A DNA stretch of 64,000 bases from the human T2T-CHM13v2.0 reference genome, Homo sapiens: the NCBI GenBank assembly GCA_009914755.4, contig CP068257.2:7264001-7328000 (forward strand), given 5' to 3'. The notes under the pieces are model-generated. The model was not told where the DNA came from. It worked only from the letters and a program-made list of their open reading frames with translations, and made no database searches. Positions within the stretch are counted from its first letter, which is position 1, and each line of letters begins with the position of its first letter. Both the position numbers and the translations under genes were made by a program. This document shows, piece by piece, positions 3,871 through 26,541 of this stretch.

Positions 3871-6800
3871 CCTGAGTCGAATGCAATGGAATGGAATGGA
3901 AAGGAGTGGAATGGAATGGAATGGAATGGAATGGAATGGAATGGAACGGAATGGAATCCAATGGAATCAGCTGGAATGGAATAGCATAGAATGGAATGGA
4001 ATGGAATGGAATCAATCCGGGTGGAAAGGAAGGGAATGTATGGAGTGGAATGGAATGGAATGGAGTGGAATGGAATGGAATGGAATGCAGTGGAATTTAA
4101 TGGAATGGAATCAACCCGAAAGGAATGGAACACAATGGAATGGAATGGAATGGAATGGAATGGAATGGAATGAACCCGAATAGGATGGAATGGAATGGAA
4201 TGGAATGGAATGGAATGGAATGGAATCAAACCGAATGGGATGGAATGGAATGAAATGTAATGGAATGCAATGGAATGCTATGGAATCAAACCGAGTGTAA
4301 GGGAAATGCATGGAATGGAATGGAATGGAATGGAATCAACCCAAATGCAATGGAATGGAATGGAATGCAACGGAATCACCCCGAGTGGAATGGAATGGAA
4401 AGGAATGGAATGAAATGGAATGGAAAGGAATGGAATGGGATCAACCCGAATGGAATGTAATGGAATGGAAAGATATGAATGGAATGGAAGGGAATGGAAT
4501 GGTATGGAATCAACCTGAGTGGAATGCATTGGACTGGAATGGAATAGAATGGAATGGAATGGAATGCAATGGAATGGAAGGAAATGGAATGGAACGGAAT
4601 GGAATGGAATTGAATGGGATGGAATGAACCCGAAAGGAACGGAATGGAATGGAAAGGAATCAATCCGAGTGGAATGAAATGGAATGTAATGCAATAGAAT
4701 GGAGCGGAATCAACCTGAGTCGAATGCAATGGAATGAAATGGAAAGGAGTGGAATGGAATGGAATGGAATGGAATGGAATGGAATGGAACCGAATGGACT
4801 CCAATGGAATCAACTGGAATGGAATAGCATAGAATGGAATGGAATGTAATGGAATCAATCCGGGTGGAAAGTAATGGAATATATGTAGTGGAATGGAATG
4901 GAATGGAGTGGAATGGAATGGAATGGAATGCAGTGGAATTTAATGGAATGGAATCAACCCGAATGGAACGGAATGGAATGGAATGGAATGGAATGGAATG
5001 GAATGGAATGGAATGGAATCAACCAGAATGGGATGGAATGGAATGGAATGGAATGGAATGCAATGGAATGCTATGGAATCAACCCGAGTGTAAGGGAAAT
5101 GCATGCAACGGAATGGAATGGAATGGAATGGAATGGAATGGAGTGAAATGGAAAGGAACGGAATGGAATTAACCCGAGTGGAATTGAATGGAATGGAAGG
5201 GAATCAACCCGAGTGGAATGAAATGGAATGTAATGCAATGGAATGGAGCGGAATCAACCTGAGTGGAATGGAATAGAATGGAAGGGAATGGAATGCAATG
5301 GAACGGAATGGAATGGAATGGAATGGAATCATCCCGAGTGGAATGGAATGGTATGGAATGCAATGGAATGGAATGGAACAGAACGGAAAGGAATGGAATG
5401 GAATAGATTGAATCCGAGAGGAATTCACTGGAGTGGAATGGATTAGAATGGAATGCAAGGGATTCAACCCAGTTGAATGTCATGGATTGGAAAGCAGTGG
5501 AATGGAATGGAATGGAAAGGAGTGGAATGGAATGGAATGGAATCAACACGAATGGAATGGAACGGAATGGAATGGAACGGAATGGAATGGAATGGAATGG
5601 AATGGAAACAACACGAATGGAATGGAATGGAACGGCAGGGAATGGAATGCTGTGGAATGGAAAGAATTGGAATAAAATAAACACGAATAGAATGGAACCG
5701 AATGGAATGGAAAGGAATGGAATGGAATGGCATGGAATGGAATGGAATGGAATGGAATGGAATGGAAACAACACGAATAGAATGGAACGGAATGGAATGG
5801 AATGCTGTGGAATGGAATGGAATGGAATGAAATAAACACGAATAGAATGGAACGGAATGGAATGGAATGGAATGGAATGGAATGGAGTGAAATGGAAAGG
5901 AACGGATTGGAATTAACCCGAGTGGAATTGAATGGAATGGAATGGAATGGAATGGAATGGAATGGAATGGAATGCAATGGAATGGAATGGAATGGAATGG
6001 AATGCAATGGAATGGAATGGAATGGAATCAACGCGAATGGAATGGAACGGAATGGAATGGAAAGGAATGGAAAGGAATGGAATGGAATGGAATGGAACGG
6101 AATGGACTGGAATGGAATGGAATCATCCCGAGTGGAATGGAATGGAATGGGATGGAACAGAACGGAAAGGAATGGAATGGAATAGATTGAATCCGAGAGG
6201 AATTGACTGCAGTGGAATGGATTGGAATGGAATGCAAGGGATTCAACCCAGTTGAATATCATGGATTGGAAAGGAGTAGAATGGAATGGAATGGGAAGGA
6301 GTGGAATGGAATGGAATGGAATCAACACGAATGGAATGGAACGGAATGGAATGAAATGGAATGGAATGGAATGGTATGGAAACAACACGAATGGAATGGA
6401 ACGGAACGGAATGGAATGGAATGGTATGGAAACAACACGAATGGAATGGAACGGAACGGAATGGAATGGAATGCTGTGGAATGGAATGGAATGGAATGAA
6501 ATAAACACGAATAGAATGCCTCGGAATGGAATGGAAAGGAATGGAGTGGAAAGGAATGGAACGGAATGAAATGGAGAGGTACGGAATGGTATTAACCCGA
6601 GTGGAATGGAATGGAATGGAAAGGAATCAACCCCAGTAGAACGAAATGGAATGTAATGCAATGGAATGGAGCAGAATCAACCTGAGTCGAATGCAATGGA
6701 ATGGAATGGAAAGGAGTGGAATGGAATGGAATGGAATGGAATGGAACGGAATGGAATCCAATGGAATCAGCTGGAATGGAATAGCATAGAATGGAATGGA

Positions 6801-7533
6801 ATGGAATGCAATCAATCCGGGTGGATAGGAATGGAATGTATGGATTGGAATGGAATGGAATGGAGTGGAATGGAATGGAATGGAATGGAATACAATGGAA
6901 TGGAATGGAATGGAATGGAATGGAATGGAATGGAAAGGAATAGAATGGAAAGGAATCAACCCGAATGGGATGGAATGGAATGGGATGGAATGGAATGGAA
7001 TGGAATGGAATGCAATGGAATGCTATGGAATCAACCCGAGGGTAAGGGAAATGAATGGAATGGAATGGAATGGAATGGAATAAACCCAAGTGCAATGGAA
7101 TGGAATCAACCCAAGTGCAATGGAATGGAATGGAATGCAACGGAATCAACCCGAGTGGAAAGGAATGGAAAGGAATGGAATGAAATGGAATGGAAAGGAA
7201 TGGAATGGAATCAACCCGAATGGAATGTGATGGAAGGGAAAGGTATAAATGGAATGGAATGGAATAGAATGGAATGGAATGGAATGGTATGGTATGGAAT
7301 CAACGCGAGTGGAATGGAATGGACTGGAATGGAATAGAATGGAATGGAATGGAATGGAATCAACACGAATGGAATGGAACGGAATGGAATGAAATGGAAT
7401 GGAATGGAATGGAATGGAATGAAATGGAAATGAACGGAATGGAATTAACACGAGTGGAACGGAATGGAATGGAAAGGAATCAACCCGAGTGGAATGAAAT
7501 GGAATGTAATGCAATGGAATGGAGCAGAATCAA
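3871..7533 (+). repeat. HOR-I copy, 3.66 kb
   Basis: Bounded by same-phase CCTGAGTCGAATGC landmarks. Internal landmarks at +850, +1589, +2369 and +2810 match the next copy. Confidence 0.65.
6241..6257. repeat. Inverted repeat ATTCAAC-CCA-GTTGAAT (same anchor module)
   Basis: The sequence and context match the copy at 561-577. Confidence 0.9.
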
Positions 7534-10500
7534 CCTGAGTCGAATGCAATGGAATGGAATGGAAAGGAGTGGAATGGAATGGAATGGAATGGAATGGAAT
7601 GGAACGGAAAGGAATCCAATGGAATCAGCTGGAATGGAATAGCATAGAATGGAATGGAATGGAATGGAATCAATCCAGGTGGAAAGGAATGAAATGTATG
7701 GACTGGAATGGAATGGAATGGAGTGGAATGGAATCGAAAGGAATGCAGTGGAATGTAATGGAATGGAATCAACCCGAATGGAATGGAACAGAATGGAATG
7801 GAATGGAATGGAATGGAATGGAATGGAATGGAATGGAATGGAATCAACCCGAATGGGATGGAATGGAATGGAATGGAATGGAATGCAATGGAATGCTATG
7901 GAATCAACCCGAGTTTAAGGGAAATGCATGGAATGGAATGGAATGGAATGGAATGGAATGGAATGGAATGGAATCAACCCAAGTGCAATGGAAAGGAATG
8001 GAATGCAACGGAATCAACCCGAGTGGAAGGGAATGGAAAGGAATGGAATGAAATGGAATGGAAAGGAATGGAATGGGATCAACCCGAATGGAATGTAATG
8101 GAATGGAAAGGTATGAATGGAATGGAATGGAATGGAATGCTATGGAATCAACCCGAGTGGAATGGATTAGACTGGAATGGAATAGAATGGAATGGAATGG
8201 AATGGAATGCAATGGAATGGAAGGGAATGGAATGGAACGGAATGGAATGGAATTGAATGGGATGGAATGAACCCGAAAGGAACGGAATGGAATGGAAAGG
8301 AATCAATCCGAGTGGAATGAAATGGAATGTAATGCAATGGAATGGAGCGGAATCAACCTGAGTCGAATGCAATGGAATGAAATGGAAAGGAGTGGAATGG
8401 AATGGAATGGAATGGAATGGAATGGAACCGAATGGAATCCAATGGAATCAACTGGAATGGAATAGCATAGAATGGAATGGAATGTAATGGAATCAATCCG
8501 GGTGGAAAGTAATGGAATATATGTAGTGGAATGGAATGGAATGGAGTGGAATGGAATGGAATGGAATGCAGTGGAATTTAATGGAATGGAATCAACCCGA
8601 ATGGAACGGAATGGAATTGAATGGAATGGAATGGAATGGAATGGAATGGAATCAACCAGAATGGGATGGAATGGAATGGAATGGAATGGAATGCAATAGA
8701 ATGCTATGGAATCAACCCGAGTGTAAGGGAAATGCATGCAACGGAATGGAATGGAATGGAATGGAATGGAATGGAATGGAGTGAAATGGAAAGGAACGGA
8801 ATGGAATTAACCCGAGTGGAATTGAATGGAATGGAAGGGAATCAACCCGAGTGGAATGAAATGGAATGTAATGCAATGGAATGGAGCGGAATCAACCTGA
8901 GTGGAATGGAATAGAATGGAAGGGAATGGAATGCAATGGAACGGAATGGAATGGAATGGAATGGAATCATCCCGAGTGGAATGGAATGGTATGGAATGCA
9001 ATGGAATGCAATGGAACAGAACGGAAAGGAATGGAATGGAATAGATTGAATCCGAGAGGAATTCACTGGAGTGGAATGGATTGGAATGGAATGCAAGGGA
9101 TTCAACCCAGTTGAATGTCATGGATTGGAAAGGAGTGGAATGGAATGGAATGGAAAGGAGTGGAATGGAATGGAATGGAATCAACACGAATGGAATGGAA
9201 CGGAATGGAATGGAACGGAATGGAATGGAATGGAATGGAATGGAATGGAATGGAATGGAAACAACACGAATGGAATGGAACGGAACGGCAGGGAATGGAA
9301 TGCTGTGGAATGGAAAGAATTGGAATAAAATAAACACGAATAGAATGGAACCGAATGGAATGGAAAGGAATGGAATGGAATGGCATGGAATGGAATGGAA
9401 TGGAATGGAATGGAAACAACACGAATAGAATGGAACGGAATGGAATGGAATGCTGTGGAATGGAATGGAATGGAATGAAATAAACACGAATAGAATGGAA
9501 CGGAATGGAATGGAATGGAATGGAATGGAATGGAATGGAATGGAATGGAGTGAAATGGAAAGGAACGGATTGGAATTAACCCGAGTGGAATTGAATGGAA
9601 TGGAATGGAATGGAATGGAATGCAATGGAATGGAATGGAATGGAATGGAATGGAATGGAATGGAATGGAATGGAATGCAATGGAATGGAATGGAATGGAA
9701 TCAACGCGAATGGAATGGAACGGAATGGAATGGAAAGGAATGGAAAGGAATGGAATGGAATGGAATGGAACGGAATGGACTGGAATGGAATGGAATCATC
9801 CCGAGTGGAATGGAATGGAATGGGATGGAACAGAACGGAAACGAATGGAATGGAATAGATTGAATCCGAGAGGAATTGACTGCAGTGGAATGGATTGGAA
9901 TGGAATGCAAGGGATTCAACCCAGTTGAATATCATGGATTGGAAAGGAGTGGAATGGAATGGAATGGGAAGGAGTGGAATGGAATGGAATGGAATCAACA
10001 CGAATGGAATGGAACGGAATGGGATGAAATGGAATGGAATGGAATGGTATGGAAACAACACGAATGGAATGGAACGGAACGGAATGGAATGGAATGCTGT
10101 GGAATGGAATGGAATGGAATGAAATAAACACGAATAGAATGCCTCGGAATGGAATGGAAAGGAATGGAGTGGAAGGGAATGGAACGGAATGAAATGGAGA
10201 GGTACTGAATGGAACTAACCCGAGTGGAATGGAATGGAATGGAAAGGAATCAACCCGAGTAGAATGAAATGGAATGTAATGCAAAGGAATGGAGCAGAAT
10301 CAACCTGAGTCGAGTGCAATGGAATGGAATGGAAAGGAGTGGAATGGAATGGAATGGAATGGAATGGAATGGAACAGAATGGAATCCAATGGAATCAGCT
10401 GGAATGGAATAGCATAGAATGGAATGGAATGGAATGCAATCAATCCGGGTGGATAGGAATGGAATGTATGGATTGGAATGGAATGGAATGGAGTGGAATG

Positions 10501-11351
10501 GAATGGAATGGAATGCAGTGGAAATTAATGGAATGGAATCAACCCGAATGGAATGGAACAGAATGGAATGGAATGGAATGGAATGGAATGGAATGGAATG
10601 GAATACAATGGAATGGAATGGAATGGAATGGAATGGAATGGAATAGAATGGAATGGAATCAACCCGAATGGGATGGAATGGAATGGGATGGAATGGAATG
10701 GAATGGAATGGAATGCAATGGAATGCTATGGAATCAACCCGAGGGTAAGGGAAATGAATGGAATGGAATGGAATGGAATGGAATAAACCCAAGTGCAATG
10801 GAATGGAATCCACCCAAGTGCAATGGAATGGAATGGAATGCAACGGAATCAACCCGAGTGGAAAGGAATGGAAAGGAATGGAATGGAATGGAATAAACCC
10901 AAGTGCAATGGAATGGAATCCACCCAAGTGCAATGGAATGGAATGGAATGCAACGGAATCAACCCGAGTGGAAAGGAATGGAAAGGAATGGAATGAAATG
11001 GAATGGAAAGGAATGGAATGGAATCAACCCGAATGGAATGTGATGGAATGGAAAGGTATAAATGGAATGGAATGGAATAGAATGGAATGGAATGGAATGG
11101 TATGGTATGGAATCAACGCGAGTGGAATGGAATGGACTGGAATGGAATAGAATGGAATGGAATGGAATGGAATCAACACGAATGGAATGGAACGGAATGG
11201 AATGAAATGGAATGGAATGGAATGGAATGGAATGGAATGAAATGGAAATGAATGGAATGGAATTTACACGAGTGGAACGGAATGGAATGGAAAGGAATCA
11301 ACCCGAGTGGAATGAAATGGAATGTAATGCAATGGAATGGAGGAGAATCAA
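7534..11351 (+). repeat. HOR-I copy, 3.82 kb (longer because of an ~80-bp insertion near 10500 and a 110-bp tandem duplication at 10781-11000)
   Basis: Landmark spacing compared with the previous copy is 827, 738, 813, 389 and 1051, against 850, 739, 780, 441 and 853. Confidence 0.65.
10781..11000 (+). repeat. 110-bp tandem duplication inside one HOR-I copy
   Basis: Units are 10781-10890 and 10891-11000. Lines 10801-10860 and 10921-10980 are identical. The homologous position in the previous copy (7078-7190) carries a single unit. Confidence 0.85.
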
Positions 11352-14300
11352 CCTGAGTCGAATGCAATGGAATGGAATGGAAAGGAGTGGAATGGAATGG
11401 AATGGAATGGAATGGAATGGAACGGAAAGGAATCCAATGGAATCAGCTGGAATGGAATAGCATAGAATGGAATGGAATGGAATGGAATCAATCCAGGTGG
11501 AAAGGAATGAAATGTATGGAGTGGAATGGAATGGAATGGAGTGGAATGGAATCGAATGGAATGCAGTGGAATGTAATGGAATGGAATCAAGCCGAATGGA
11601 ATGGAACAGAATGGAATGGAATGGAATGGAATGGAATGGAATGGAATGGAATGGAATCAACCCGAATGGGATGGAATGGAATGGAATGGAATGGAATGCA
11701 ATGGAATGCTATGGAATCAACCCGAGTTTAAGGGAAATGCATGGAATGGAATGGAATGGAATGGAATGGAATGAAATGGAATCAACCCAAGTGCAAGGGA
11801 AAGGAATGGAATGCAACGGAATCAACCCGAGTGGAATGGAATGGAAAGGAATGGAATCAAATGGAATGGAAAGGAATGGAATGGGATCAACCCGAATGGA
11901 ATGTAATGGAATGGAAAGGTATGAATGGAATGGAATGGAATGGAATGGTATGGAATCAACCCGAGTGGAATGGATTGGACTGGAATGGAATAGAATGGAA
12001 TGGAATGGAATGGAATGCAATGGAATGGAAGGGAATGGAATGGAACGGAATGGAATGGAATTGAATGGGGTGGAATGAACCCGAAAGGAACGGAATGGAA
12101 TGGAAAGGAATCAATCCGAGTGGAATGAAATGGAATGTAATGCAATGGAATGGAGCAGAATCAACCTGAGTCGAATGCAATGGAATGAAATGGAAAGGAG
12201 TGGAATGGAATGGAATGGAATGGAATGGAATGGAATGGAACCGAATGGAATCCAATGGAATCAACTGGAATGGAATAGCATAGAATGGAATGGAATGTAA
12301 TGGAATCAATCCGGGTGGAAAGGAATGGAATATATGTAGTGGAATGGAATGGAATGGAGTGGAATGGAATGGAATGGAATGCAGTGGAATTTAATGGAAT
12401 GGAATCAACCCAAATGGAACGGAATGGAATGGAATGGAATGCAATGGAATGGAATGGAATGGAATCAACCAGAATGGGATGGAATGGAATGGAATGGAAT
12501 GGAATGCAATAGAATGCTATGGAATCAACCCGAGTGTAAGGGAAATGCATGCAACGGAATGGAATGGAATGGAATGGAATGGAATGGAGTGAAATGGAAA
12601 GGAACGGAATGGAATTAACCCGAGTGGAATTGAATGGAATGGAAGGGAATCAACCCGAGTGGAATGAAATGGAATGTAATGCAATGGAATGGAGCGGAAT
12701 CAACCTGAGTGTAATGGAATAGAATGGAAGGGAATGGAATGCAATGGAACGGAATGGAATGGAATGGAATGGAATGGAATCATCCCGAGTGGAACGGAAT
12801 GGTATGGAATGCAATGGAATGGAATGGAACAGAACGGAAAGGAATGGAATGGAATAGATTGAATCCGAGAGGAATTCACTGGAGTGGAATGGATTGGAAT
12901 GGAATGCAAGGGATTCAACCCAGTTGAATGTTATGGATTGGAAAGGAGTGGAATGGAATGGAATGGAAAGGAGTGGAATGGAATGGAATGGAATCAACAC
13001 GAATGAAATGGAACGGAATGGAATGGAACGGAATGGAATGGAATGGAATGGAATGGAATGGAATGGAATGGAAACAACACGAATGGAATGGAACGGAACG
13101 GCAGGGAATGGAATGCTGTGGAATGGAAAGAATTGGAATAAAATAAACACGAATAGAATGGAACCGAATGGAATGGAAAGGAATGGAATGGAATGGCATG
13201 GAATGGAATGGAATGGAATGGAATGGAATGGAATGGAATGGAAACAACACGAAGAGAATGGAACGGAATGGAATGGAATGCTGTGGAATGGAATGGAATG
13301 GAATGAAATAAACACGAATAGAATGGAACGGAATGGAATGGAATGGAATGGAATGGAATGGAGTGAAATGGAAAGGAACGGATTGGAATTAACCCGAGTG
13401 GAATGGAATGGAATGGAATGGAATGGAATGGAATGGAATGCAATGGAATGGAATGGAATGGAATGGAATGCAATGGAATGGAATGGAATGGAATCAACGC
13501 GAATGGAATGGAACGGAATGGAATGGAAAGGAATGGAAAGGAATGGAATGGAATGGAATGGAATGGAATGGAAAGGAATGCACTGGAATGGAATGGAATC
13601 ATCCCGAGTGGAATGGAATGGAATGGGATGGAACAGAACGGAAAGGAATGGAATGGAATAGATTGAATCCGAGAGGAATTGACTGCAGTGGAATGGATTG
13701 GAATGGAATGCAAGGGATTCAACCCAGTTGAATATCATGGATTGGAAAGGAGTGGAATGGAATGGAATGGGAAGGAGTGGAATGGAATGGAATGGAATCA
13801 ACACGAATGGAATGGAACGGAATGGAATGAAATGGAATGGAATGGAATGGTATGGAAACAACACGAATGGAATGGAACGGAACGGAATGGAGTGGAATGG
13901 TATGGAAACAACACGAATGGAATGGAACGGAACGGAATGGAATGGAATGCTGTGGAATGGAATGGAATGGAATGAAATAAACACGAATAGAATGCCTCGG
14001 AATGGAATGGAAAGGAATGGAGTGGAAAGGAATGGAACGGAATGAAATGGAGAGGTACGGAATGGTATTAACCCGAGTGGAATGGAATGGAATGGAAAGG
14101 AATCAACCCGAGTAGAATGAAATGGAATGTAATGCAATGGAATGGAGCAGAATCAACCTGAGTCGAATGCAATGGAATGGAATGGAAAGGAGTGGAATGG
14201 AATGGAATGGAATGGAATGGAATGGAAAAGAATGGAATCCAATGGAATCAGCTGGAATGGAATAGCATAGAATGGAATGGAATGGAATGCAATCAATCCG

Positions 14301-15110
14301 GGTGGATAGGAATGGAATGTATGGATTGGAATGGAATGGAATGGAGTGGAATGGAATGGAATGGAATGCAGTGGAAATTAATGGAATGGAATCAACCCGA
14401 ATGGAATGGAACAGAATGGAATGGAATGGAATGGAATGGAATGGAATGGAATGGTATGGAAACAACACGAATGGAATGGAACGGAACGGAATGGAATGGA
14501 ATGGTATGGAAACAACACGAATGGAATGGAACGGAACGGAATGGAATGGAATGCTGTGGAATGGAATGGAATGGAATGAAATAAACACGAATAGAATGCC
14601 TCGGAATGGAATGGAAAGGAATGGAGTGGAAAGGAATGGAACGGAATGAAATGCAGAGGTACGGAATGGTATTAACCCGAGTGGAGTGGAATGGAATGGA
14701 AAGGAATCAACCCGAGTAGAATGAAATGGAATGTAATGCAATGGAATGGAGCAGAATCAACCTGAGTCGAATGCAATGGAATGGAATGGAAAGGAGTGGA
14801 ATGGAATGGAATGGAACGGAATGGAACGGAATGGAATCCAATGGAATCAGCTGGAATGGAATAGCATAGAATGGAATGGAATGGAATGCAATCAATCCGG
14901 GTGGATAGGAATGGAATGTATGGATTGGAATGGAATGGAATGGAGTGGAATGGAACGGAATGGAATGCAGTGGAAATTAATGGAATGGAATCAACCCGAA
15001 TGGAATGGAACAGAATGGAATGGAATGGAATGGAATGGAATGGAATGGAATACAATGGAATGGAATGGAATGGAATGGAATGGAATGGAATGGAAAGGAA
15101 TAGAATGGAA
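11352..15110 (+). repeat. HOR-I copy carrying a 604-bp internal tandem duplication, ending at the domain junction
   Basis: It starts on the same-phase landmark. The 10301-type landmark occurs twice, at 14157 and 14761. Confidence 0.55.
13845..15052 (+). repeat. ~604-bp tandem duplication (two units)
   Basis: ACACGAATAGAATGCCTCGG occurs at 13981 and 14585. CCTGAGTCGAATGC occurs at 14157 and 14761. The intervening ~300 bp match at a constant 604 bp offset. Confidence 0.75.
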
Positions 15111-15170
15111 TGGAATCAACCCGAATGGAATGGAATGGAATGGAATGGAATGGAATGGCATGGAATCAAC
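15100..15170. other. Junction between HOR family I and HOR family II (breakpoint ambiguous within shared AATCAACCCGAATGGAATGG microhomology)
   Basis: Sequence up to ~15,100 matches domain-I copies (for example 10301-10670). From ~15,130 onward it matches domain-II copies (for example 26020-26200: GGCATGGAATCAACCCGAGTGGAATGGAATGGAAAGGAATTCAATGG...TATTATCGAATACAATGG). Confidence 0.55.
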
Positions 15171-15623
15171 CCGAGTGGAATGGAATGGAAAGGAATTCAA
15201 TGGAATGGAAAGGAATGCAATGGTATGGAATCAACCAGAGTGGAATATTATCGAATACAATGGAATGGAACGGAATGGAATGGAATAAAATGTAATGGAA
15301 TGGAATGGAATCAACCGGAGTGCAATGAAATGGAATGGAATAAAATGGAATGGAAAGGAATTAAATGGAAAGGAACGGAATGGAATCAACACGAGTGGAA
15401 TGGAATGGAATGGAATGGAATCAATCCGAGTGGAATGGAAAGTAATGGAATGCAAAGGAATGAAACGGAATATAATGGAATGGAATGGAAACATCCCGAG
15501 TGGAATGGAATGGTATGGAATGCAATGGAACGGAATGGAACGGAACGGAATGGAATGGAACGGAATAGATTGAATCAGAGAGGAATTGAATGGAGAGGAA
15601 TGGAATGGAATGGAATGCAATGG

Positions 15624-15641
15624 ATTCAACTCTAGTTGAAT
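15624..15641. repeat. Inverted repeat ATTCAAC-TCTA-GTTGAAT (family-II variant, 4-nt loop)
   Basis: CAATGG[ATTCAACTCTAGTTGAAT]ATCATGGATTGGAAAGG. The stem is identical to the type-A copies and only the loop differs. Confidence 0.9.
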
Positions 15642-16343
15642 ATCATGGATTGGAAAGGAATGGAATGGAATGGAATGGAGTGGAGTGGAATAGAATCAAC
15701 TCGAGTGCAATGGAATGTAATGGAATGGAGTGGAATGGAATGGAATGCAATGAAATGGAAAGGAATGCTATGGAATCAACCCGAGTGTAATGGAAATGAA
15801 TGGAATGGAATGGAATAGAAAGGAATGAATGGAAAGGAATGGAATGGAATGGAATGGAATGGAATGGTATGGAATCAACCCGAGTGGAATGGAATGGACT
15901 GGAATGGAATAGAATGGAATGGAATGGAATGGAATGCAACAGAATCAACCCGAGTAGAATGGAATGGAAAGAAATGGAATGAAATGGAATGGAAAGGAAT
16001 GGAATGGAATCAACACGAATGAATGGAATGGAATGGAAAGGAATGAATGAAATGGAATGGAATGGAATGGAATGGTAGGGAATCAACACGAGTGGAATGG
16101 AATGGAATGGAATGGAATGGAATGCTATGCAATCAACAAGAGTGTAATGGAAATGAATGGAATGGAATGGAATGGAATAGAATGGAATAAACCAGAAAGG
16201 AATGGAATGGAATGGATTGGAATGGAATGGAACGGATTGGAATGCTATGCAATCAACAGGAGTGTAATGGAAATGAATGGAATGGAATGGAATGGAATGG
16301 AATAAACCCAAGTGCAATGGAATGGAATAGAATGCAATGGAAT

Positions 16344-16352
16344 AAAAAAAAA
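16344..16352 (+). repeat. A9 homopolymer at a fixed phase of the domain-II large unit
   Basis: GGAATAAAAAAAAAGTGGAATGGAATAGAAAGGCATGCAATGG. Homologous tracts lie at 27273-27282 (A10) and 39531-39538 (A8). Confidence 0.9.
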
Positions 16353-19300
16353 GTGGAATGGAATAGAAAGGCATGCAATGGAATGGAATGGAAAGCAAAG
16401 GAATGGAATCAACCCGACTGGAATGGAATGGAATGGAAAGGAATGAAGGGAATGGAATGGAATGGAAAGGTATGGAATCAACTCGAGTGGAATGGAATGG
16501 AATGGAATGGAATGGAATGGAATGGAATGGAATGGAAAGTTATGGAATCAACTCGAGTGGAATGGAATGGAATGGAGTGGAATGGAATGGAATGGAATGG
16601 AATGGAATGGAGTGGAATGGAAGGCAATGCCATGGAATGGAACGGAATGGAATGGAATGGAATGGAATGGAACGGAATGGAATTGAATGGCATGGAATGA
16701 ACCCGACTGGAATGGAATGCAATGGAATGGAATGGAATGGAATGGAATGGAATCAACCCGAATGGAATGGAATGGAATGGAATGGAGTGGAATGGAATGG
16801 AATTGAATGGAATGGAATAGAATGGATTGGAAAGGAATCAACCCGAATTGAATGGAATGGAATGGATTGGAATGGAATGGAATCGAATGGAATGGAATGG
16901 AATCAACCCGAGTGGAATGGAATGGAATGGAATGGAATGGAATGGAATGGAATGGAGTGGAATGGAAGGCAATGCCATGGAATGGAATGGAATGGAATGG
17001 AATGGAATGGAATGGAACGGAATGGAATAGAATGGCATGGAATGAACCCGACTGGAATGGAATGCAATGGAATGGAATGGAATGGAATGGAATGGAATGG
17101 AATGGAATGGAATCAACCCGAATGGAATGGAATGGAATGGAATGGAGTGGAATGGAATGGAATTGAATGGAATGGAATAGAATGGAATGGAAAGGAATCA
17201 ACCCGAATTGAATGGAATGGAATGGAATGGAATGGAATCGAATGGAATGGAATGGAATCAACCCGAGTGGAATGGAATGGAATGGAATGGAATGGAATCA
17301 ACCTGAATGGAATGGAATGGAATGGAATGGAAAGGAATGGAATGGAATGGAATGGAATGGAATGGAATGGAATAGAATGGAATCAACAAGAATGGGATGG
17401 AATAGAATGGAATGGAATGGAATGGAAAGGAATCCTATTGAATCAACCCGAGTGTAATGGAAAAGAATGGAATGGAATGGAATGCAATGGAATGGAATCA
17501 AACCAAGTGCAATGGAATGGAATAGAATGCAACGGAACCAACCCGAGTGGAATGGAATAGAAAGGCATGCAATGGAATGGAATGGAAAGCAGTGGAATGG
17601 AATCAACCCGACTGGAATGGAATGGAATGGAAAGGAATGAAGGGAATGGAATGGAATGGGAAGGTATGGAATCAACCCGAGTGGAATGGAATGGAATGGA
17701 ATGGAATGGAATGGAGTGGAATGGAATGGAGTGGAATCGAGTGGAATGGAATGGAATGGAGTGGAATGGAAGACAATGAAATTTTATGGAATGGAATAGA
17801 AAGGAGCGGAACAGAATGGAATTGAATGGCATGGAATGGACACGAATCCAATGGAATGGAATGGAATGGAATGGAATGGAATGGAATCAACCCGAATGGA
17901 ATGGAATGGAATGGAATGGAATGGAATTAAATGGAAAGGAATGGAATGGATTCAACACGAGTGGAATGGAATGGAATGGAGTGGAATGGAATGGAATGGA
18001 ATCAATCCGAGTGGAATGGAATGGAATGGAATGGAATGCAATGGAATGGAATGGAAAGGAATGGAATGGAATGGAATGGAAGGCAAGGCAATGGAATGGA
18101 ATGGAATGGAACGGAATGGAACTCAATGGCATGGAATGAACCAGACTGGAATGGAATGCAATGGAATGGAATGGAATGGAATGGAATGGAATGGAATGGA
18201 ATGGAATGGAATCAACCCGAATGGAATGGAATGGAATGGAATGGAGTGGAATGGAATGGAATTGAATGGAATGGAATGGAATGGAAAGGAATCAACCCGA
18301 ATGGAATAGAATGGAATGGAATGGAATGGAATGGAATGGAATGGAATGGAATGGAATCAACCCGAGTGGAATGGAATGGAATGGAATTCAGTGGAATGGA
18401 ACGGAATGGGATGGTATGGAATCAAGCTGAGTGGAATATTATCGAATGAAATGGAACGGAATGGGACGGTATGGAATCAACCCGAGTGGAATATTATCGA
18501 ATGAAATGGAATGGAACGGAATGGAATGGAATAAAATGTAATGGAATGCAATGGAATCAACCGGAGTGCAATGGAATGGAATCGAATAAAATGGATTGGA
18601 ATGGAATTAAATGGAAAGGAACGGAATGGAATCAACACGAGTGGAATGGAATGGAATGGAATGGAATGGAATAGAATGGAATGGAATGGAATCAACCGGA
18701 GTGCAATGGAATGGAATGGAATAAAATGGAATGGAATGGAATTAAATGGAAAGGAACGGAATGGAATCAACACGAGTGGAATGGAATGGAATGGAATGGA
18801 ATGGAATGGAATGGAATGGAATCAATCCGAGTGGAATGGAATGGAATGGAATGCAATGGAATGAAACGGAATATAATAGAATGGAATGGAAACATCCCGA
18901 GTGGAATGGAATGGTATGGAATGCAATGGAACGGAATGGAACAGAACGGAATGGAATGGAATGGAATAGATTGAATCAGAGAGGAATTGAATGGAGAGGA
19001 ATGGAATGGAATGGAATGCAATGGATTCAACTCTAGTTGAATATCATGGATTGGAAAGGAATGGAATGGAATGGAATGGAATGGAATGGAATGGAATGGA
19101 ATGGAGTGGAATGGAATAGAATCAACTCGAGTGCAATGGAATGTAATGGAATGGAGTGGAATGGAATGGAATGCAATGAAATGGAAAGGAATGCTATGGA
19201 ATCAACCCGAGTGTAATGGAAATGAATGGAATGGAATTGAATAGAAAGGAATGAATGGAATGGAATGGAATGGAATGGAATGGAATGGAATGGTATGGAA

Positions 19301-20566
19301 TCAACCCGAGTGGAATGGAAAGGACTGGAATGGAATAGAATGGAATGGAATGGAATGGAATGCAACGGAATCAACCCGAGTAGAATGGAATGGAAAGAAA
19401 CGGAATGAAATGGAATGGAAAGGAGTGGAATGGAATCAACACGAATGGAATGGAATGGAATGGAAAGGAATGAATGCAATGGAATGGAATGGAATGGAAT
19501 GGTAGGGAATCAACCCGAGTGGAATGGAATGGAATGGAATGGAATGGAATGGAATGGAATCCAGCCGAATGGGATGGAATGCAATGCAATGGAATGGAAT
19601 GGAATAGAATCAACCCGAATGGAATGGAACGGAATGGAATGAAAAGGAATGGAATGGAAAGGAATGGAATGGAATAGAATGGAATAAACCAGAATGGAAT
19701 GGAATGGAATGGATTGGAATGGAATGGAATGGAATGGAATGCTATGGAATCAACAGGAGTGTAATGGAAATGAATGGAATGGAATGGAATGGAATGGAAT
19801 AAACCCAAGTGCAATGGAATGGAATAGAATGCAATGGAATCAACCCAAGTGGAATGGAATAGAAAGGCATGCAATGGAATGGAATGGAAAGCAAAGGAAT
19901 GGAATCAACCAGACTGGAATGGAATGGAATGGAAAGGAATGAAGGGAATGGAATGGAATGGAAAGGTATGGAATCAACTCTAGTGGAATGGAATGGAATG
20001 GAATGCAATGGAATGGAATGGAATGGAATGGAATGGAATGGAATGGAATGGAATGGAATCAACCCGAGTGGAATGGAATGGAATGGAATTCAATGGAATG
20101 AAGTGGAATGGGATGGTATGGAATCAACCCGTGTGGAATATTATCGAATGAAATGGAATGGAATGGGATGGTATGGAATCAACCCGAGTGGAATATTATC
20201 GAATTAAATGGAATGGAACTGAATGGAATGGAATAAAATGCAATGGAATGGAATGGAATCAACCAGAGTGGAATGGAATATAATGGAATGGAATGGAATT
20301 AAATCGAGAGGAACAGAATGGAATCAACACGAGTGGAATGGAATGGAATGGAATGGAATGGAATCAACCCGAGTGGAATGGAATGGAATGGAATGTAATG
20401 GAATGAAGCGGAATATAATGCAATGGAATGGAAACATCCCGAGTGGAATGGAATGGTATGGAATGCAACGGAACGGAATGGAACAGAACGGAATGGAATG
20501 GAACGGAATAGATTGAATCAGAGAGGAATTGAATGCAGAGGAATGGATTGGAATGGAATGCAATGG

Positions 20567-20584
20567 ATTCAACCCTAGTTGAAT
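20567..20584. repeat. Inverted repeat ATTCAAC-CCTA-GTTGAAT (second family-II variant)
   Basis: CAATGG[ATTCAACCCTAGTTGAAT]GTCATGGATTGGAAAGG. Confidence 0.9.
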
Positions 20585-23500
20585 GTCATGGATTGGAAAG
20601 GAATGGAATGGAACGGAATGGAATGGAATGGAATGGAGTGGAATGAAATGGTGTGGAATCAACACGAATGGAAAGGAACGAAATGGAATGGAATGGAATG
20701 GAATGGACTGGAATGGAATGGAATGGAATGGAAACAACACGAATAGAATGGAACGGAATGGAATGGAATGCTGTGGAATGGAATGGAATGGAAAGGAATC
20801 AACCCGAGTGGAATGAAATGGAATGTAATGCAATGGAATGGAGCGGAATCAACCTGAGTCAAATGCAATGGAATGGAATGGAATGGAGTGGAATGGAATG
20901 GAATGGAATGGAATGGAATGGAATGGAATGGAACGGAATGGAATCCAATGGAATCAACTGGAATGGAATAGCACAGAATGGAATGGAATGGAATGGAATC
21001 AATCCGGGTGGAATGGAATGGAATGTATGGAGTAGAATGGAATGGAATGGAGTGGAATGGAATGGAATGGAATGCAGTGGAATTTAATGGAACGGAATCA
21101 ACCCGAATGGAATGGAACGGAATGGAGTGGAAAGGAATGGAATGGAATGGAATGGAATGGAATGGAATGGAATGGAATGGAATGGAATGGAATCAACCCA
21201 AGTGCAATGGAATGGAATGGAATGCAATGGTATCAACCCGAGTGGAATGGAAAGGAAAGGAATGAAATGAAATGGAATGGAAAGGAATGGAATGGAATCA
21301 AACCGAATGGAATGGAATGGAATGGAATGGAAAGTAAAGAATGGAATGGAATGGAATGGATTGGTATGGAATGGTATGGAATCAACCCGAGTGGAATGGA
21401 ATGGACAGGAATGGAATAGAATGGAATGGGATGGAATGGAATGCAATGGAATGGAAAGGAATGGTACGGAATGGAACGGAATGGAATAGAATGAACACGA
21501 ATGGAATGGAATGGAAAGGAATGGATTGGAATGGAATGGAATGGAATCAACCCGAGTGGAACGGAATGTAATGAAATGGAGTGGAATGGAAAGGAATGGA
21601 ATGGAATGGAATGAACACGAATGGAATGGAATGGAATGGAATGGAATGGAATGGTATGGAATCAACCCGAGTGGAATGGAATGGACAGGAATGGAATAGA
21701 ATGGAATGGGATGGAATGGAATGCAATGGAATGGAATGGAATAGAAAGGAATGGTACGGAATGGAACGGAATGGAATAGAATGAACACGAATGGAATGGA
21801 ATGGAAAGGAATGGATTGGAATGGAATGGAATGGAATCAACCCGAGTGGAACGGAATGTAATGGAATGGAGTGGAATGGAATGGAATGGAATGGAATGGA
21901 ATGGAATGGAATGCAATGGAATCAACACGAATGGAATGGAATGGCATGGAATGGAAGGGAATGGAATGAAATGGAATCAACCCTAGTGGAATGGAATGGA
22001 ATGGAGTTTAATGGAATGGAATAGAATAGATTGGTATGGAATCAACCCGAGAGGAATGGTATGGAATGGAATGCAATGGAATGGAATGCAATGCAACAAA
22101 ATGGAATGGAATGGAATGGTATCAACACGAGTGGAAGGGAATGGAATGGAATGGAATCAACCGGAGTGGAATGGAATGGAATGGAGTGGAATGGAATGGA
22201 ATGCAATGAAATGGAAAGGAACGGAATTTAATCACCCCGAGTGGAATGGAATAGAATGGAATGGAAAGGAATGGAATCAACCCGAGTGGAATGGAATGGA
22301 ATGGAATGGAATGGAATGGAATGGAATGGAATGGAATGGAATCAACCTGAGTGGAATGGAATGGAATGGAATGGAATGGAATGGAATGGAATGGAATGAA
22401 CACGAGTGGAATGGAATAGAATGAAATGCAATGGAATGAAATGGAATGCAATGGAATGGAATGGAATGCAAGACATTGGAATCAACTGGAATGGAATGGA
22501 ATGCAATGGAATGGAATGGAATGCAATGGAATCAACCAGAGTGGAAAGGAATAGAATGGAATGGATTATAATGCAATGGAATGGAATCAATCCTGGTGCA
22601 ATGGAACGGAATGGCATGGAGTGGAATGGAACGGAATGGAATGGAATGGAATGGAATGGAAAGGAATCAACCCGAAAGGAATGGAATGGAATGAAATGGA
22701 AAGGAATGGAATGCAATGGATTGGAATGGAATGAAATGGATTCAACCCGAATTGAATGGAATGGAATGGAATGGAATGTTATATAATCAACACGAGTGGA
22801 ATGAAATGAATGGAAAGAAATGGAATGGAATGCAATGGAATGGAATGGAAAGGAATGGAATGGAATCAACCCGAATGGAATTGAATGGAAAGGAATGGAA
22901 TGGAATGGATTAGAATGGAATGGAATGGAATGGAATGGAATGGAATGGAATGGAATGGAGTGGAATGGAATGGAATGGAATCATCCCGAGTGGAATGGAA
23001 TGGTATGGAATGCAATGGAATGGCATGGAACAGAACGGAAAGGAATGGAATGGAATAGATTGAATCTGAGAGGAATTGACTGGAGTGGAATGGATGGAAA
23101 TGGAATGAAAGGGATTCAACCAAGTTGAATGTCATGGATTGGAAAGGAGTGGAATGGAATGGAATGGAAAGGAGTGGAATGGAATGGAATGGAATCAACC
23201 CGAATGGAATGGAACGGAATGGAATGGAAAGGAAAGGAATGGAATGGAATGGAATGGAATGGAATGGAATCAACCTGAATAGGATGGAATGGAATGGAAT
23301 GGAATGGAATACAATGGAATGCTATGGAATAAACCCGAGTGTAATGGAAATGCATGGAATGGAATGGAATGGAATGGAATGGAATGGAATGGAATGGAAT
23401 CAACCCAAGTGCAATGGAATGGAATGGAATGCAACGGAATCAACCCGAGTGGAATGGAATGGACAGGAATGGAATAGAATGGAATGGGATGGAATGGAAT

Positions 23501-26500
23501 GCAATGGAATGGAAAGGAATGGTACGGAATGGAACGTAATGGAACGGAATGGAATAGAATGAACACGAAAAGAATGGAATGGAAAGGAATGGATTGGAAT
23601 GGAATAGAATGGAATCAACCCGAGTGGAACGGAATGTAATGGAATGGAGTGGAATGGAATGGAATGGAATGGAATGGAATCAACACGAATGGAATGGAAT
23701 GGCATGGAATGGAATGGAATGGAATGGAATGGAATGGAATGGAATCAACCCTAGTGGAATGGAATCGAATGGAGTTTAATGGAATAGAATAGAATAGATT
23801 GGTATGGAATCAACCCGAGAGGAATGGTATGGAATGGAATGCAATGGAATGGAATGGAATGGAATAAAATGGAACGGAATGGAATGGAATCAACGCGAGT
23901 GGAAGGGAACGGAATGGAATGGAATCAAAAGGAGTGGAATGGAATGGAATGGAGTGGAATGGAATGGAATGCAATGAAATGGAAAGGAACGGAATTTAAT
24001 CAACCCGAGTAGAATGGAATAGAATGGAATGGAAAGGAATGCAATCAACCCGAGAGGAATGGTATGGAATGGGATGCAATGCAATGGAATGGAATGGAAT
24101 AGAATGGAATGCAATGGAATGGAATCAACCCGAGTGGAAGGGAATGGAATGGAATGGAATCAACCGGATTGGAATGGAATGGAATGGAGTGGAATGGAAT
24201 GAATGCAATGAAATGGAAAGGAATACTATGAAATCAACCCGAGTGTAATGGAAATGAACGGAATGGAATGGAATGGGATGGAATCAAGCCAAGTGCAATG
24301 GAATGGAATAGAATGCAACAAAATCAACCCGAGTGGAATGGAATAGAAAGGCATGCAATGGAATGGAATGGAAAGCAATGGAATGGAATCAACCGGACTG
24401 GAATGGAATGGAATCGAAAGGAATGAATGGAATGGAATGGAATGGAAAGGTATGGATTCCACCCGAGTGGAATGGAATGGAATGGAATGGAATGCAGTGG
24501 AATGGAAGGCAATGAAATGGAATGGAAAGGAATGGAATGGAATGGAATGGAATGCAACGGAACGGAATGGAATTGAATGGCATGGAATGAACCCGAATGG
24601 AATAGAATGGAATGGAATGGAATGGAATGAAATGGAATGGAATGGAATGGTATGGAATGGAATGGAAACAACACGAATGGAATGGAACGGAAAGGAATGG
24701 AATGGAATGCTGTGGAATGGAATGGAATGGAATGAAATAAACACGAATAGAGTGGAATGGAATGGAATGGAACGGAATGGAATGGAATGGAATGGAATTG
24801 AATGGAATGAAATGGAAAGGAACGGAATGGAATTAACCGAGTGGAACGGGATGGAATGGAAAGGAATCAATCCGAGTGGAATGAAATGGAATGTAATGCA
24901 ATGGAATGGAGCGGAATCAACCTGAGTCGAATGCAATGGAATGGAATGGATTGGAGTGGAATGGAATGGAAGGTAATGGAATGGAATGGAATGGAATGGA
25001 ATGGAATGGAATGGAATGGAATTGAATGGAATGGAATGGAATCCAACGGATTCAACTGGAATGGAATAGCATAGAATGGAATGGAATGGAATGAAATCAA
25101 TCCGGTGGAATGGAATGGAATGTATGGAGTGGAATGGAATGGAATGGAGTGGAATGGAATGGAATGGAATGCAGTGGAATTTAATGGAATGGAATCAACC
25201 CGAATGGAATGGAATGGAATGGAATGGAAAGGAGTGGAATGGAATGGAATGGAATGGAATGGAATGGAATGGAATGGAATCAACCCAAATGGGATGGGAT
25301 GGAATGGAATGGAATGGAATCAACCTGAATGGAATGGAATGGAATGGAATGGAAAGGAATGGAATGGAATGGAATGGAATGGAATGGAATAGAATGGAAT
25401 CAACAAGAATGGGATGGAATAGAATGGAATGGAATGGAATGGAAAGGAATCCTATTGAAACAACTCGAGTGTAATGGAAAAGAAAGGAATGGAATGGAAT
25501 GGAATGGAATGCAATGGAATGGAATCAAACCAAGTGCAATGGAATGGAATAGAATGCAACGGAACCAACCCGAGTGGAATGGAATAGAAAGGCATGCAAT
25601 GGAATGGAATGGAAAGCAGTGGAATGGAATCAACCCGACTGGAATGGAATGGAATGGAAAGGAATGAAGGGAATGGAATGGAATGGGAAGGTATGGAATC
25701 AACCCGAGTGGAATGGAATGGAATGGAATGGAATGGAATGGAGTGGAATGGAATGGAATGGAATGGAATGGAGTGGAATGGAATGGAGTGGAATGGAATG
25801 GAGTGGAATGGAATGGAGTGGAATCGAGTGGAATGGAATGGAATGGAGTGGAATGGAAGGCAATGAAATTTTATGGAATGGAATAGAAAGGAGCGGAACA
25901 GAATGGAATTGAATGGCATGGAATGGACCCGAATGCAATGGAATGGAATGGAATGGAATGGAATGGAATGGAATGGAATGGAATCAACCCAAATGGAATG
26001 GAATGGAATGAAATGGAATGGAATGGCATGGAATCAACCCGAATGGAATGGAATGGAATGGAATGGAATGGAATGGCATGGAATCAACCCGAGTGGAATG
26101 GAATGGAAAGGAATTCAATGGAATGGAAAGGAATGCAATGGTATGGAATCAACCAGAGTGGAATATTATCGAATACAATGGAATGGAACGGAATGGAATG
26201 GAATAAAATGTAATGGAATGGAATGGAATCAACCGGAGTGCAATGAAATGGAATGGAATAAAATGGAATGGAATGGAATTAAATGGAAAGGAACGGAATG
26301 GAATCAACACGAGTGGAATGGAATGGAATGGAATGGAATCAATCCGAGTGGAATGGAAAGTAATGGAATGCAAAGGAATGAAACGGAATATAATGGAATG
26401 GAATGGAAACATCCCGAGTGGAATGGAATGGTATGGAATGCAATGGAACGGAATGGAACGGAACGGAATGGAATGGAATGGAATAGATTGAATCAGAGAG

Positions 26501-26541
26501 GAATTGAATGGAGAGGAATGGAATGGAATGGAATGCAATAG

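What the first reader, a model, noticed from the sequence alone, without database searches (positions are those of the whole stretch)
15100..15170. Junction between two distinct HSat3 HOR families inside the window
Up to ~15.1 kb the sequence follows the domain-I HOR. Immediately after it follows a different family recognisable by TATTATCGAATACAATGG, GGAATTCAATGG, CAATGGATTCAACTCTAGTTGAATATC, A-tracts and much longer periodicities. The switch occurs within a short stretch both families share (AATCAACCCGAATGGAATGGAATGG), which suggests unequal or microhomology-mediated exchange. It sits right after a 604-bp tandem duplication, so the region is a local hotspot of rearrangement. Domain-I-like modules reappear later inside domain II (23.1k, 34.1k, 52.9-54.5k, 62.2-63.8k). 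Domain II is therefore a mosaic rather than an unrelated array.
Basis: seen in the sequence. Interest (0 to 1): 0.5.

Follow-up and report, generated by a model that had tools for sequence, protein, structure and literature searches.

The report
Boundary between two HSat3 repeat blocks
Inside one uninterrupted stretch of (GGAAT)n-type Human-Satellite-3-like DNA, a short run of ~3.7-kb repeat units abuts a block of ~9-12-kb repeat units at a breakpoint that can be narrowed to 19 bases; this is real but is the ordinary, already described way such satellite arrays are built.

Summary
The whole 64-kb window is one-stranded HSat3-type satellite: GGAAT pentamers, 167 CAACCCGAGT decamers and strict 5-bp periodicity. 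From 3677 to 15128 lie about 2.9 copies of a 3.67-3.81-kb unit (98% identical), preceded by a 90%-identical older copy. From 15129 onward lie larger units of 10.9, 12.3 and 9.3 kb (99.4-99.6% identical). The switch is abrupt. Domain-I variants run through 15109, domain-II variants start at 15129, and the crossover interval is 15110-15128 (ATGGAATCAACCCGAATGG). The 604-bp duplication (13849-14452 / 14453-15056) and all four "domain-I-like" islands are real.

The shared 19-mer is not evidence of a mechanism, because it occurs 43 times and 66% of domain-I 19-mers also occur in domain II. The "hotspot" claim does not exceed the background rate of structural change. The domain-I-like islands are old relatives (84-88% identical over 1 kb) embedded in the domain-II unit, not recent transfers. 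Subfamily assignment could not be made.

The best reading is a boundary between two locally amplified nested tandem repeats, shaped by unequal exchange. Published T2T satellite analyses already describe this behaviour. Interest is low.

The parts
1..3676 (+). Older, diverged copy of the domain-I unit. It is collinear with 7350-11024.
   Evidence: Substitution identity to copies A and B is 90.3%, with 21-24 indels/kb. It shows no 3.6-3.9-kb recurrence. Its 24-mer sharing with domain I is lower, at 0.41-0.71.
3677..7349 (+). Domain-I unit, copy A (3.67 kb)
   Evidence: Dense anchor chains link 3677-6421 to 7350-10094 (lag 3673) and 3677-6864 to 11163-14345. Identity to copy B is 98.2%.
7350..11162 (+). 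Domain-I unit, copy B (3.81 kb). It holds the intact parental sequence of the left side of the junction at 10645-10709.
   Evidence: A chain links 7064-10088 to 10877-13891 at lag 3813. The alignment to 14700-15166 is about 98% identical.
11163..15128 (+). Domain-I unit, copy C. It is the last copy, cut at the phase equivalent to 10652 of copy B, and it carries the 50-bp and 604-bp duplications.
13843..13892 (+). Extra 50-bp tandem repeat relative to copy B. It is present in both halves of the 604-bp duplication (again at about 14450-14549), so it is older than that duplication.
   Evidence: Alignment of 13700-15130 against 9880-10670, and the sequence itself.
13849..14452 (+). 604-bp tandem duplication, first half
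   Evidence: Chains at lag 604/599. The halves are 99.0% identical, with 6 mismatches and one 5-bp indel. The unit ends lie in pure (GGAAT)n runs.
14453..15056 (+). 604-bp tandem duplication, second half. It ends 54 bp before the crossover interval.
15110..15128 (+). Crossover interval ATGGAATCAACCCGAATGG. This is the only stretch where the junction sequence matches both parental registers.
   Evidence: Domain-I states are A15097, A15102 and A15109. The 40-mer 15070-15109 is exact only at 6910. Domain-II states are A15129, A15144 and C15159, whereas both domain-I copies read GGGATGG twice and lack GGCATGG. The 24-mer map agrees.
15129..26034 (+). Domain-II unit 1 (10.9 kb)
   Evidence: Chains link 15117-16502, 16541-19980 and 20084-23874 to unit 2 at lags 10860-10975. 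Identity to unit 2 is 99.36%.
26035..38296 (+). Domain-II unit 2 (12.3 kb). It contains a 1,383-bp segment absent from unit 1. Its start holds the intact parental sequence of the right side of the junction.
38297..46654 (+). Domain-II unit 3, rearranged or shortened. Its first 1.4 kb equals 15117-16502.
   Evidence: Chains link 15117-16502 to 38297-39688, and 34166-36933 to 43264-46037. See also the alignment.
46655..64000 (+). Two domain-II units of 9.3 kb (46655-56016 and 56017 to the window end). They lack the first ~1.7 kb of units 1-3.
   Evidence: A chain links 46655-54698 to 56017-64000 at lag 9302-9362. Identity is 99.62%, and the 9.25-9.4-kb recurrence is 0.85-0.96.
22966..23234 (+).
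   Evidence: Covered by domain-I-characteristic 20-mers.
33936..34204 (+). It is the unit-2 counterpart of 22966-23234.
52786..54650 (+).
   Evidence: The best 1-kb match to domain I is 86.9%. Identity to 62.1-63.96k is 97-99%.
62083..63957 (+). It is the 9.3-kb-period copy of 52786-54650.

Best explanation
The feature is a genuine internal boundary of one head-to-tail HSat3-type satellite array, where two separately homogenised 'nested tandem repeats' meet. On the left is a short run (about 2.9 copies) of a 3.7-3.8-kb unit, the tail of an older array of the same unit. On the right is a block of 9-12-kb units.

The most likely origin is a single out-of-register (unequal) exchange or deletion between misaligned satellite copies. 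It joined position ~10652-equivalent of the small unit to position ~26035-equivalent of the large unit. The exchange point falls in one of the ubiquitous ...GGAATCAACCCGAATGG... motifs. Unequal sister-chromatid or homologue exchange and conversion then kept each side homogeneous.

What is shown: the two periodicities, the abrupt switch, the 19-bp crossover interval, the relatedness of the two units through shared modules, and the absence of any inversion or foreign insert.

What is inferred: that the join was made by one unequal exchange or deletion rather than being an inherited adjacency, and that the sequence is human pericentromeric DNA. No function is implied. The junction is a by-product of satellite turnover.
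For: - Abrupt, single-step change of periodicity and of 24-mer sharing at 15.1 kb.
- The junction sequence is a clean recombinant. It carries domain-I diagnostic bases up to 15109 and domain-II diagnostic bases from 15129, with near-perfect identity to the intact parental registers on each side and only background identity (about 70-76%) beyond them.
- The orientation is the same throughout: 6939 GGAAT against 3 ATTCC, and all 167 CAACCCGAGT decamers lie on the + strand. There is no non-satellite insert.
- Other footprints of out-of-register exchange are abundant. The 604-bp and 50-bp tandem duplications have ends in (GGAAT)n runs. 73 of 77 indels between copies are multiples of 5 bp. One indel is 1,383 bp.
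- The two units share descent: module identities are 90-96% between domains and 97-99.6% within them.
- The literature already describes this. [quoted passage not shown]
Against: - The 19-bp shared stretch does not discriminate between mechanisms. 66% of domain-I 19-mers recur in domain II, so even a blunt join would probably look like this.
- Because the phase of a tandem repeat is arbitrary, 'both units are cut internally' is also what an inherited adjacency flanked by two independent amplifications would show.
- Only one haplotype and only one side of domain I are visible in the window.
- Species, chromosome and published subfamily could not be established.
- Read-level support for the assembly at this point cannot be checked.
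Confidence: 0.6

Rival explanations
1. Inherited adjacency with two independent local amplifications (layered or hyper-local expansion). In this reading the D1|D2 join is simply old contiguous sequence. A ~3.7-kb segment to its left and a ~10-kb segment to its right were each amplified in place, and both amplifications happened to use the common CAACCCGAATGG-containing motif at 15110-15128 as an end point.
For: - Homogeneity rises stepwise from left to right: 90.3% for 1-3677, 98.2% for domain-I copies, 99.36% and 99.62% for domain-II units. This is what successive local expansions of different age would give.
- The core motif is very common, at 43 exact copies in 64 kb, so its reuse as an end point is not far-fetched.
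- The 604-bp duplication also ends in simple (GGAAT)n runs.
- The literature explicitly proposes hyper-local NTR expansion in HSat arrays.
Against: It requires the right end of one amplification and the left end of another to coincide within 19 bp. A single exchange between two existing arrays needs no such coincidence. The diverged copy at 1-3677 shows that a domain-I-type array existed well before the present homogenised copies.
Confidence: 0.27
2. End of a gene-conversion tract or of an inter-array transfer. One repeat type was copied over or inserted into an array of the other type, possibly from another chromosome, and 15110-15128 is one edge of the copied tract.
For: Published work reports that many HSat3 subfamilies are shared between chromosomes, suggesting inter-chromosomal homogenisation (PMC4022460). 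Domain-I-related modules occur on both sides of the bulk of domain II: in domain I itself, and at 52.8-54.65 kb and 62.1-63.96 kb.
Against: The distal domain-I-like modules are only 84-88% identical to domain I, and they belong to the 9.3-kb domain-II period. They are therefore not the interrupted continuation of domain I. The other edge of the putative tract is not in the window, so nothing specifically supports this reading.
Confidence: 0.08
3. Assembly artefact. Two satellite blocks from different places were wrongly joined through a short shared motif.
For: Satellite arrays are the hardest regions to assemble. The join lies in a motif present 43 times in the window.
Against: The stretch common to both parental registers is only 19 bp of perfect identity, about 57 bp near-identical (15110-15166). 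That is far shorter than any read length that could have produced a 64-kb contiguous satellite assembly. Both flanks are unique over 40-90 bp: the junction 91-mer is unique even with 2 mismatches. Read data cannot be inspected here.
Confidence: 0.05

Closest known systems
Nested tandem repeats (NTRs) of Human Satellite 3, with periodicity that changes along an array (Altemose et al., 'Complete genomic and epigenetic maps of human centromeres', bioRxiv 10.1101/2021.07.12.452052)
   Same: - Multi-kb repeat units built from diverged (CATTC/GGAAT)n.
- High identity between neighbouring units (98-99.6%).
- Different periodicities in adjacent parts of one array.
- Evidence of very local expansion.
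   Different: Nothing is different in kind. Here one such change of periodicity is resolved to a 19-bp interval, and the two units are shown to share older modules. The array and subfamily concerned could not be identified.
DYZ1 / HSat3A6, the ~3.6-kb HSat3 nested tandem repeat of Yq12 (10.1101/2022.12.01.518724; PMC4022460)
   Same: A pentamer-derived unit of similar length: 3.67-3.81 kb here against ~3.6 kb. Most copies are >=98% identical, and evolution is by unequal exchange.
   Different: The most common HSat3A6-specific 24-mer has no match within one mismatch anywhere in the window. Only about 2.9 homogeneous copies are present. The neighbour is another HSat3-type block, not HSat1B/DYZ2. 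Membership is not supported.
Boundaries between alpha-satellite HOR arrays and the layered-expansion model of centromeric arrays
   Same: Adjacent blocks of related tandem repeats with different higher-order periods and different degrees of homogeneity, where younger, more homogeneous blocks lie next to older, more diverged ones.
   Different: This is a different satellite family. There is no discrete ~171-bp monomer, so the units are not HORs in the strict sense, and there is no link to kinetochore position.

Membership tests
Human Satellite 3 (HSat3 / classical satellite III) | Built from the pentamer ATTCC/GGAAT (ancestral CATTC)n | tested here: met
   There are 6939 GGAAT in 64 kb, about 102-110 per kb in both domains. 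81% of all bases lie in pentamers within one mismatch of GGAAT. Definition from PMC4022460 and PMC7665179.
Human Satellite 3 (HSat3 / classical satellite III) | Interspersed decanucleotide CAACCCGAGT (typical of HS3, not HS2) | tested here: met
   There are 167 exact CAACCCGAGT, all on the + strand. CAACCCGA[AG]T occurs at 2.8 per kb in domain I and 4.2 per kb in domain II. Definition from PMC7665179.
Human Satellite 3 (HSat3 / classical satellite III) | Strict 5-bp periodicity, rather than the 23/26-bp units of HSat2 | tested here: met
   Self-match is 0.68-0.74 at lags of 5, 10, 15, 20, 25, 30 and 50. It is 0.10 at lag 23 and 0.32-0.33 at lag 26, in both domains. 73 of 77 indels are multiples of 5.
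Human Satellite 3 (HSat3 / classical satellite III) | Human (or hominid) pericentromeric or acrocentric/Yq location | not testable with these tools
   No human or ape genome collection is available. Scans of metagenome and prokaryote-genome collections for the junction and for family markers found nothing.
Human Satellite 2 | HSat2 subfamily-specific 24-mers / 23+26-bp unit | tested here: not met
   The three HSat2 top 24-mers have no match within 2 mismatches on either strand. There is no 23- or 26-bp periodicity.
Published HSat3 subfamilies A1-A6, B1-B5 (Altemose 2014) | Presence of subfamily-specific 24-mers.
   Only the single most common marker per subfamily was available (Table 1). There are 0 exact hits for all of them. 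With up to 1 mismatch there are 4 hits for B5 and 1 for A2, all in domain II. The held part of the full marker list covers only HSat2A1. The 5-mer composition of the two domains overlaps on PC1-3.
DYZ1 / HSat3A6 | ~3.6-kb unit carrying HSat3A6-specific 24-mers | tested here: not met
   The unit length is similar at 3.67-3.81 kb. However, the top HSat3A6 24-mer has no hit within 1 mismatch. This rests on a single marker only.
Nested tandem repeat (NTR) organisation | Multi-kb units, made of diverged short repeats, that are themselves tandemly repeated with high identity | tested here: met
   Domain I has about 2.9 units of 3.67-3.81 kb at 98.2% identity. Domain II has units of 10.9, 12.3 and 9.3 kb at 99.4-99.6%. 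Definition from 10.1101/2021.07.12.452052.
Higher-order repeat (HOR) in the strict sense | Unit composed of a discrete number of monomers of similar length | tested here: inconclusive
   Domain I shows three paralogous sub-module types recurring at about 0.8-kb spacings (lags 779-853; tree). No fixed-length monomer above 5 bp was demonstrated. Unit lengths drift by multiples of 5 bp.

The most novel reading that the evidence does not exclude
The junction marks the leading edge of a young, still expanding large-unit block (99.4-99.6% identical units) that is overrunning an older small-unit array (98%, then 90% identical copies). The CAACCCGAATGG-containing motif would then be a preferred, recurrent exchange site. 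If so, the stepwise homogeneity gradient in this window would be a datable 'layered expansion' inside HSat3, and the junction would be polymorphic in position between human haplotypes.
Probability: 0.1. Interest if true: 0.3.

Novelty: already known. Interest (0 to 1): 0.12.

Why it matters
It matters little beyond bookkeeping. The junction gives a unique sequence tag in otherwise repetitive DNA: the 91-mer 15090-15180 is unique in the window even with two mismatches. That tag could serve as a marker for read mapping, for assembly validation, or for asking whether this array boundary is fixed or polymorphic among haplotypes. The analysis also gives a caution for similar findings. In this satellite, 'microhomology at a breakpoint' is the chance expectation and cannot be used to infer a repair pathway.

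Tried and rejected
- **Plain BLAST self-comparison.** It timed out. With abundant k-mers soft-masked it extended across the whole window at every lag, because any two registers of this satellite are about 76% identical. I replaced it with rare-k-mer chaining.
- **Fuzzy regex search.** It timed out. I replaced it with Hamming scans.
- **MAFFT multiple alignment of junction and parental copies.** It slipped register on the pentamers. I used anchored pairwise alignments instead.
- **Fixed 300-bp tile identities.** These were noisy because of 5-bp-multiple indels. I replaced them with 24-mer sharing.
- **'Strict' local alignments of domain-II bins against domain I.** They still produced full-length alignments at about 75%, so only the ranking and the top values were used.
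- **Subfamily typing with the published top 24-mers.** No exact hits. The stored copy of the full marker list covers only HSat2A1.
- **Searches of metagenome and prokaryote-genome collections.** I searched for the junction 84-mer, two domain-II markers and one domain-I marker. All gave 0 hits, and the caps are exhausted.
- **Foreign insert.** I considered that the A-tracts might mark a transposable-element fragment and rejected it. They are single 9-10-nt A runs inside degenerate pentamers, and no stretch longer than 20 bp departs from the satellite pattern.
- **Inversion breakpoint.** Considered and rejected, because the strand is uniform throughout.

Full report
**What the window is.** All 64 kb are one-stranded pentameric satellite.
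- There are 6939 GGAAT against 3 ATTCC.
- There are 167 CAACCCGAGT decamers, all on the + strand.
- Self-match is 0.68-0.74 at every multiple of 5 bp, but only 0.10 at lag 23 and 0.32-0.33 at lag 26.
- GC skew is uniformly +0.62 to +0.68.
- No stretch longer than 20 bp departs from the pentamer/decamer pattern, so there is no transposable-element fragment or other insert.

These are the defining features of classical satellite III/HSat3 as stated in PMC7665179 and PMC4022460. The three HSat2 markers have no match within two mismatches. Species and chromosome cannot be determined with the tools available. Scans of the metagenome and prokaryote-genome collections for the junction and for family markers found nothing.

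**Checking the observation.**
- Lags between successive copies of rare 24-mers are 3638/3813 bp in 1-15100, and 9302/10970/12357 bp (plus 4430/4892) in 15100-64000.
- A 1-kb-bin k-mer dotplot shows a self-similar block 0-15 kb and a different one from 15 kb on. Domain-I-like signal returns at 53-54 and 62-64 kb.
- The fraction of informative 24-mers shared with domain I falls from 0.82-0.95 to 0.15-0.3 exactly at the 15001 tile. The fraction shared with domain II rises from about 0.45 to 0.85-1.0 at the same tile.
The 3.6-3.9-kb recurrence is 0.42-0.87 for upstream copies at 4-10.5 kb, and 0.01-0.07 for those whose partner would lie beyond 15.1 kb. The 10.8-11.05-kb recurrence starts at 0.80 in the 15001 bin.

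**The breakpoint.**
- Sequence 14700-15166 aligns at about 98% to the previous domain-I copy (10243-10709), then drops to background.
- Sequence 15110-15700 aligns at about 99% to domain II (26028-26620), with only background upstream. The same holds for the third domain-II copy at 38.3 kb.
- Background identity between any two non-orthologous registers is about 76%.
- The junction carries domain-I states at 15097, 15102 and 15109. The 40-mer 15070-15109 recurs exactly only at 6910.
- It carries domain-II states at 15129, 15144 and 15159, where both intact domain-I copies read GGGATGG twice and lack GGCATGG.
- The crossover therefore lies in 15110-15128, ATGGAATCAACCCGAATGG.
- A base-resolution map of domain-exclusive 24-mers agrees. 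Domain-I-exclusive words start no later than 15102, and domain-II-exclusive words start from 15113.

**Architecture.**
- Domain I consists of copy A (3677-7349), copy B (7350-11162) and copy C (11163-15128, cut at the phase of 10652). A and B are 98.2% identical, with 4.6 indels per kb.
- Positions 1-3677 are a collinear but only 90.3%-identical, indel-rich copy without the 3.7-kb k-mer recurrence. The clean repeat is therefore a local run of about 2.9 copies at the end of an older array of the same type.
- Domain II begins with three units starting at 15117, 26035 and 38297, with lags of 10.9 and 12.3 kb. Unit 2 has an extra 1,383 bp.
- Domain II ends with two 9.3-kb units, 46655-56016 and 56017 to the window end.
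- Domain-II unit identities are 99.36% and 99.62%.
- The sequence upstream of 26035 and 38297 is unrelated to 14.6-15.1 kb beyond background.

**The duplication.**
- Copy C contains a 604-bp tandem duplication (13849-14452 / 14453-15056) that is single-copy in A and B.
- Its ends lie in pure (GGAAT)n runs.
- Both halves contain an older 50-bp tandem repeat.
- The halves differ by 6 substitutions and one 5-bp indel, giving 99.0% identity. The event is therefore no younger than the domain-II unit duplications.

**How the two domains relate.**
- A module present 21 times (the 'L2' 65-mer and its flanks) is 97-99.6% identical between orthologous copies within a domain, and 90-96% between domains.
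- In a neighbour-joining tree, the domain-I copies form one clade with three paralogous types that recur at about 0.8-kb spacings.
- Most domain-II copies form another clade.
- The pair 53434/62736 forms a long third branch.
- Domain-I-characteristic 20-mers cover 12.7% of domain II in discrete islands. Others lie at 24.6-25.3k, 37.0-37.6k and 42.8-43.1k, and a ~150-bp module recurs seven times.
- Over 1 kb these islands reach only 84-88% identity to domain I. They recur with the domain-II period at 97-99%. They are old shared building blocks, not recent transfers.
- By 5-mer composition, the basis of the published subfamily scheme, the two domains overlap. A few 5-mers are exclusive to domain II: CTAGT, AGGCA, CCTAG and ATTAT.

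**Mechanism.**
- The junction is a clean recombinant between the two registers, with no filler, no inversion and no foreign DNA.
- The same window contains many footprints of out-of-register exchange, and 73 of 77 indels between copies are multiples of 5 bp.
- The best-supported explanation is a single unequal exchange or deletion that joined two pre-existing arrays, followed or accompanied by local homogenisation of each. This agrees with what is published for HSat arrays.
The 19-mer occurs 43 times, and 66% of domain-I 19-mers are also present in domain II. The parental flanks are of average similarity among all pairs sharing the core.
- The 'hotspot' argument does not rise above background either. 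Four indels of 40 bp or more separate copies A and B, and a 1,383-bp indel separates two domain-II units.
- The main rival is an inherited adjacency flanked by two independent in-situ amplifications. It cannot be excluded from one haplotype, because repeat phase is arbitrary. It fits the left-to-right rise in homogeneity (90% -> 98% -> 99.4% -> 99.6%). It also requires two amplification end points to coincide within 19 bp.
- A conversion or transfer tract edge and an assembly artefact are less likely, for the reasons given under the rivals.

**Comparison with what is known, and verdict.**
- Multi-kb 'nested tandem repeats' in HSat2/3, periodicity that changes along an array, and hyper-local expansion are described in the T2T centromere paper (10.1101/2021.07.12.452052).
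- The ~3.6-kb DYZ1 unit and its evolution by unequal exchange are described in the T2T-Y paper (10.1101/2022.12.01.518724).
- Domain I resembles DYZ1 in unit length only. The top HSat3A6 marker is absent.
- Assignment to a published subfamily was inconclusive.

The finding is therefore a correct and well-located observation of an ordinary, already described kind of structure. Its mechanistic over-interpretations (microhomology, hotspot, mosaic by recent exchange) are not supported.

Noticed in passing
window 1-3677, boundary near 3677: The first 3.7 kb are a collinear copy of the domain-I unit. It is only 90.3% identical to the later copies, has 21-24 indels per kb, and lacks the 3.6-3.9-kb k-mer recurrence. 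There is thus a second, softer boundary between an old copy and the homogenised 2.9-copy run.
   Followed up: partly
whole window, left to right: Homogeneity rises stepwise from left to right. It is 90.3% for 1-3677 against the domain-I copies, 98.2% for domain-I copies A/B, 99.36% for domain-II units 1/2, and 99.62% for domain-II units 4/5. This pattern resembles layered or successive local expansions.
   Followed up: partly
window ~23369 (unit 1), corresponding to roughly 34.3-35.7 kb in unit 2: Domain-II unit 2 carries a 1,383-bp segment absent from unit 1. It is the largest indel between repeat copies in the window, and it accounts for the 10.9-kb versus 12.3-kb unit lengths.
   Followed up: no
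window 28-46 kb; also 49781-51007, 54668-55924 and 59103-60354: Domain II is not one clean period. Recurrence is at 10.9 kb (15.1-23.9k), 12.3 kb (23.2-28k), 9.1 kb (34.2-36.9k against 43.3-46.0k) and 9.3 kb (46.7-54.7k). An internal ~1.2-kb module is repeated at 4.9- and 4.4-kb spacing. Units 4-5 lack the first ~1.7 kb found in units 1-3.
   Followed up: partly
window 53434 and 62736 (+/-250 bp): This module pair is 99.6% identical to each other but only 92-94% identical to every other paralogue in either domain. It is a third lineage embedded in the 9.3-kb units.
   Followed up: partly
window 16344-16353, 27273-27283, 39531-39540: A single 9-11-nt A run (GGAATAAAAAAAAAGTGGAATGG) occurs once per unit in domain-II units 1-3, and is absent from units 4-5 and from domain I. 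It lies within degenerate pentamers and is not a transposable-element tail.
   Followed up: yes
window 13843-13949 and 14450-14549: A 50-bp tandem repeat (TGGAATGGTATGGAAACAACACGAATGGAATGGAACGGAACGGAATGGAA-like) is single-copy in domain-I copy B (10040). It is doubled in both halves of the 604-bp duplication, so it is the older event.
   Followed up: yes
whole window: 73 of 77 indels between aligned repeat copies are exact multiples of 5 bp, and 66% of domain-I 19-mers recur in domain II. Breakpoint 'microhomology' in this satellite is therefore the null expectation.
   Followed up: yes
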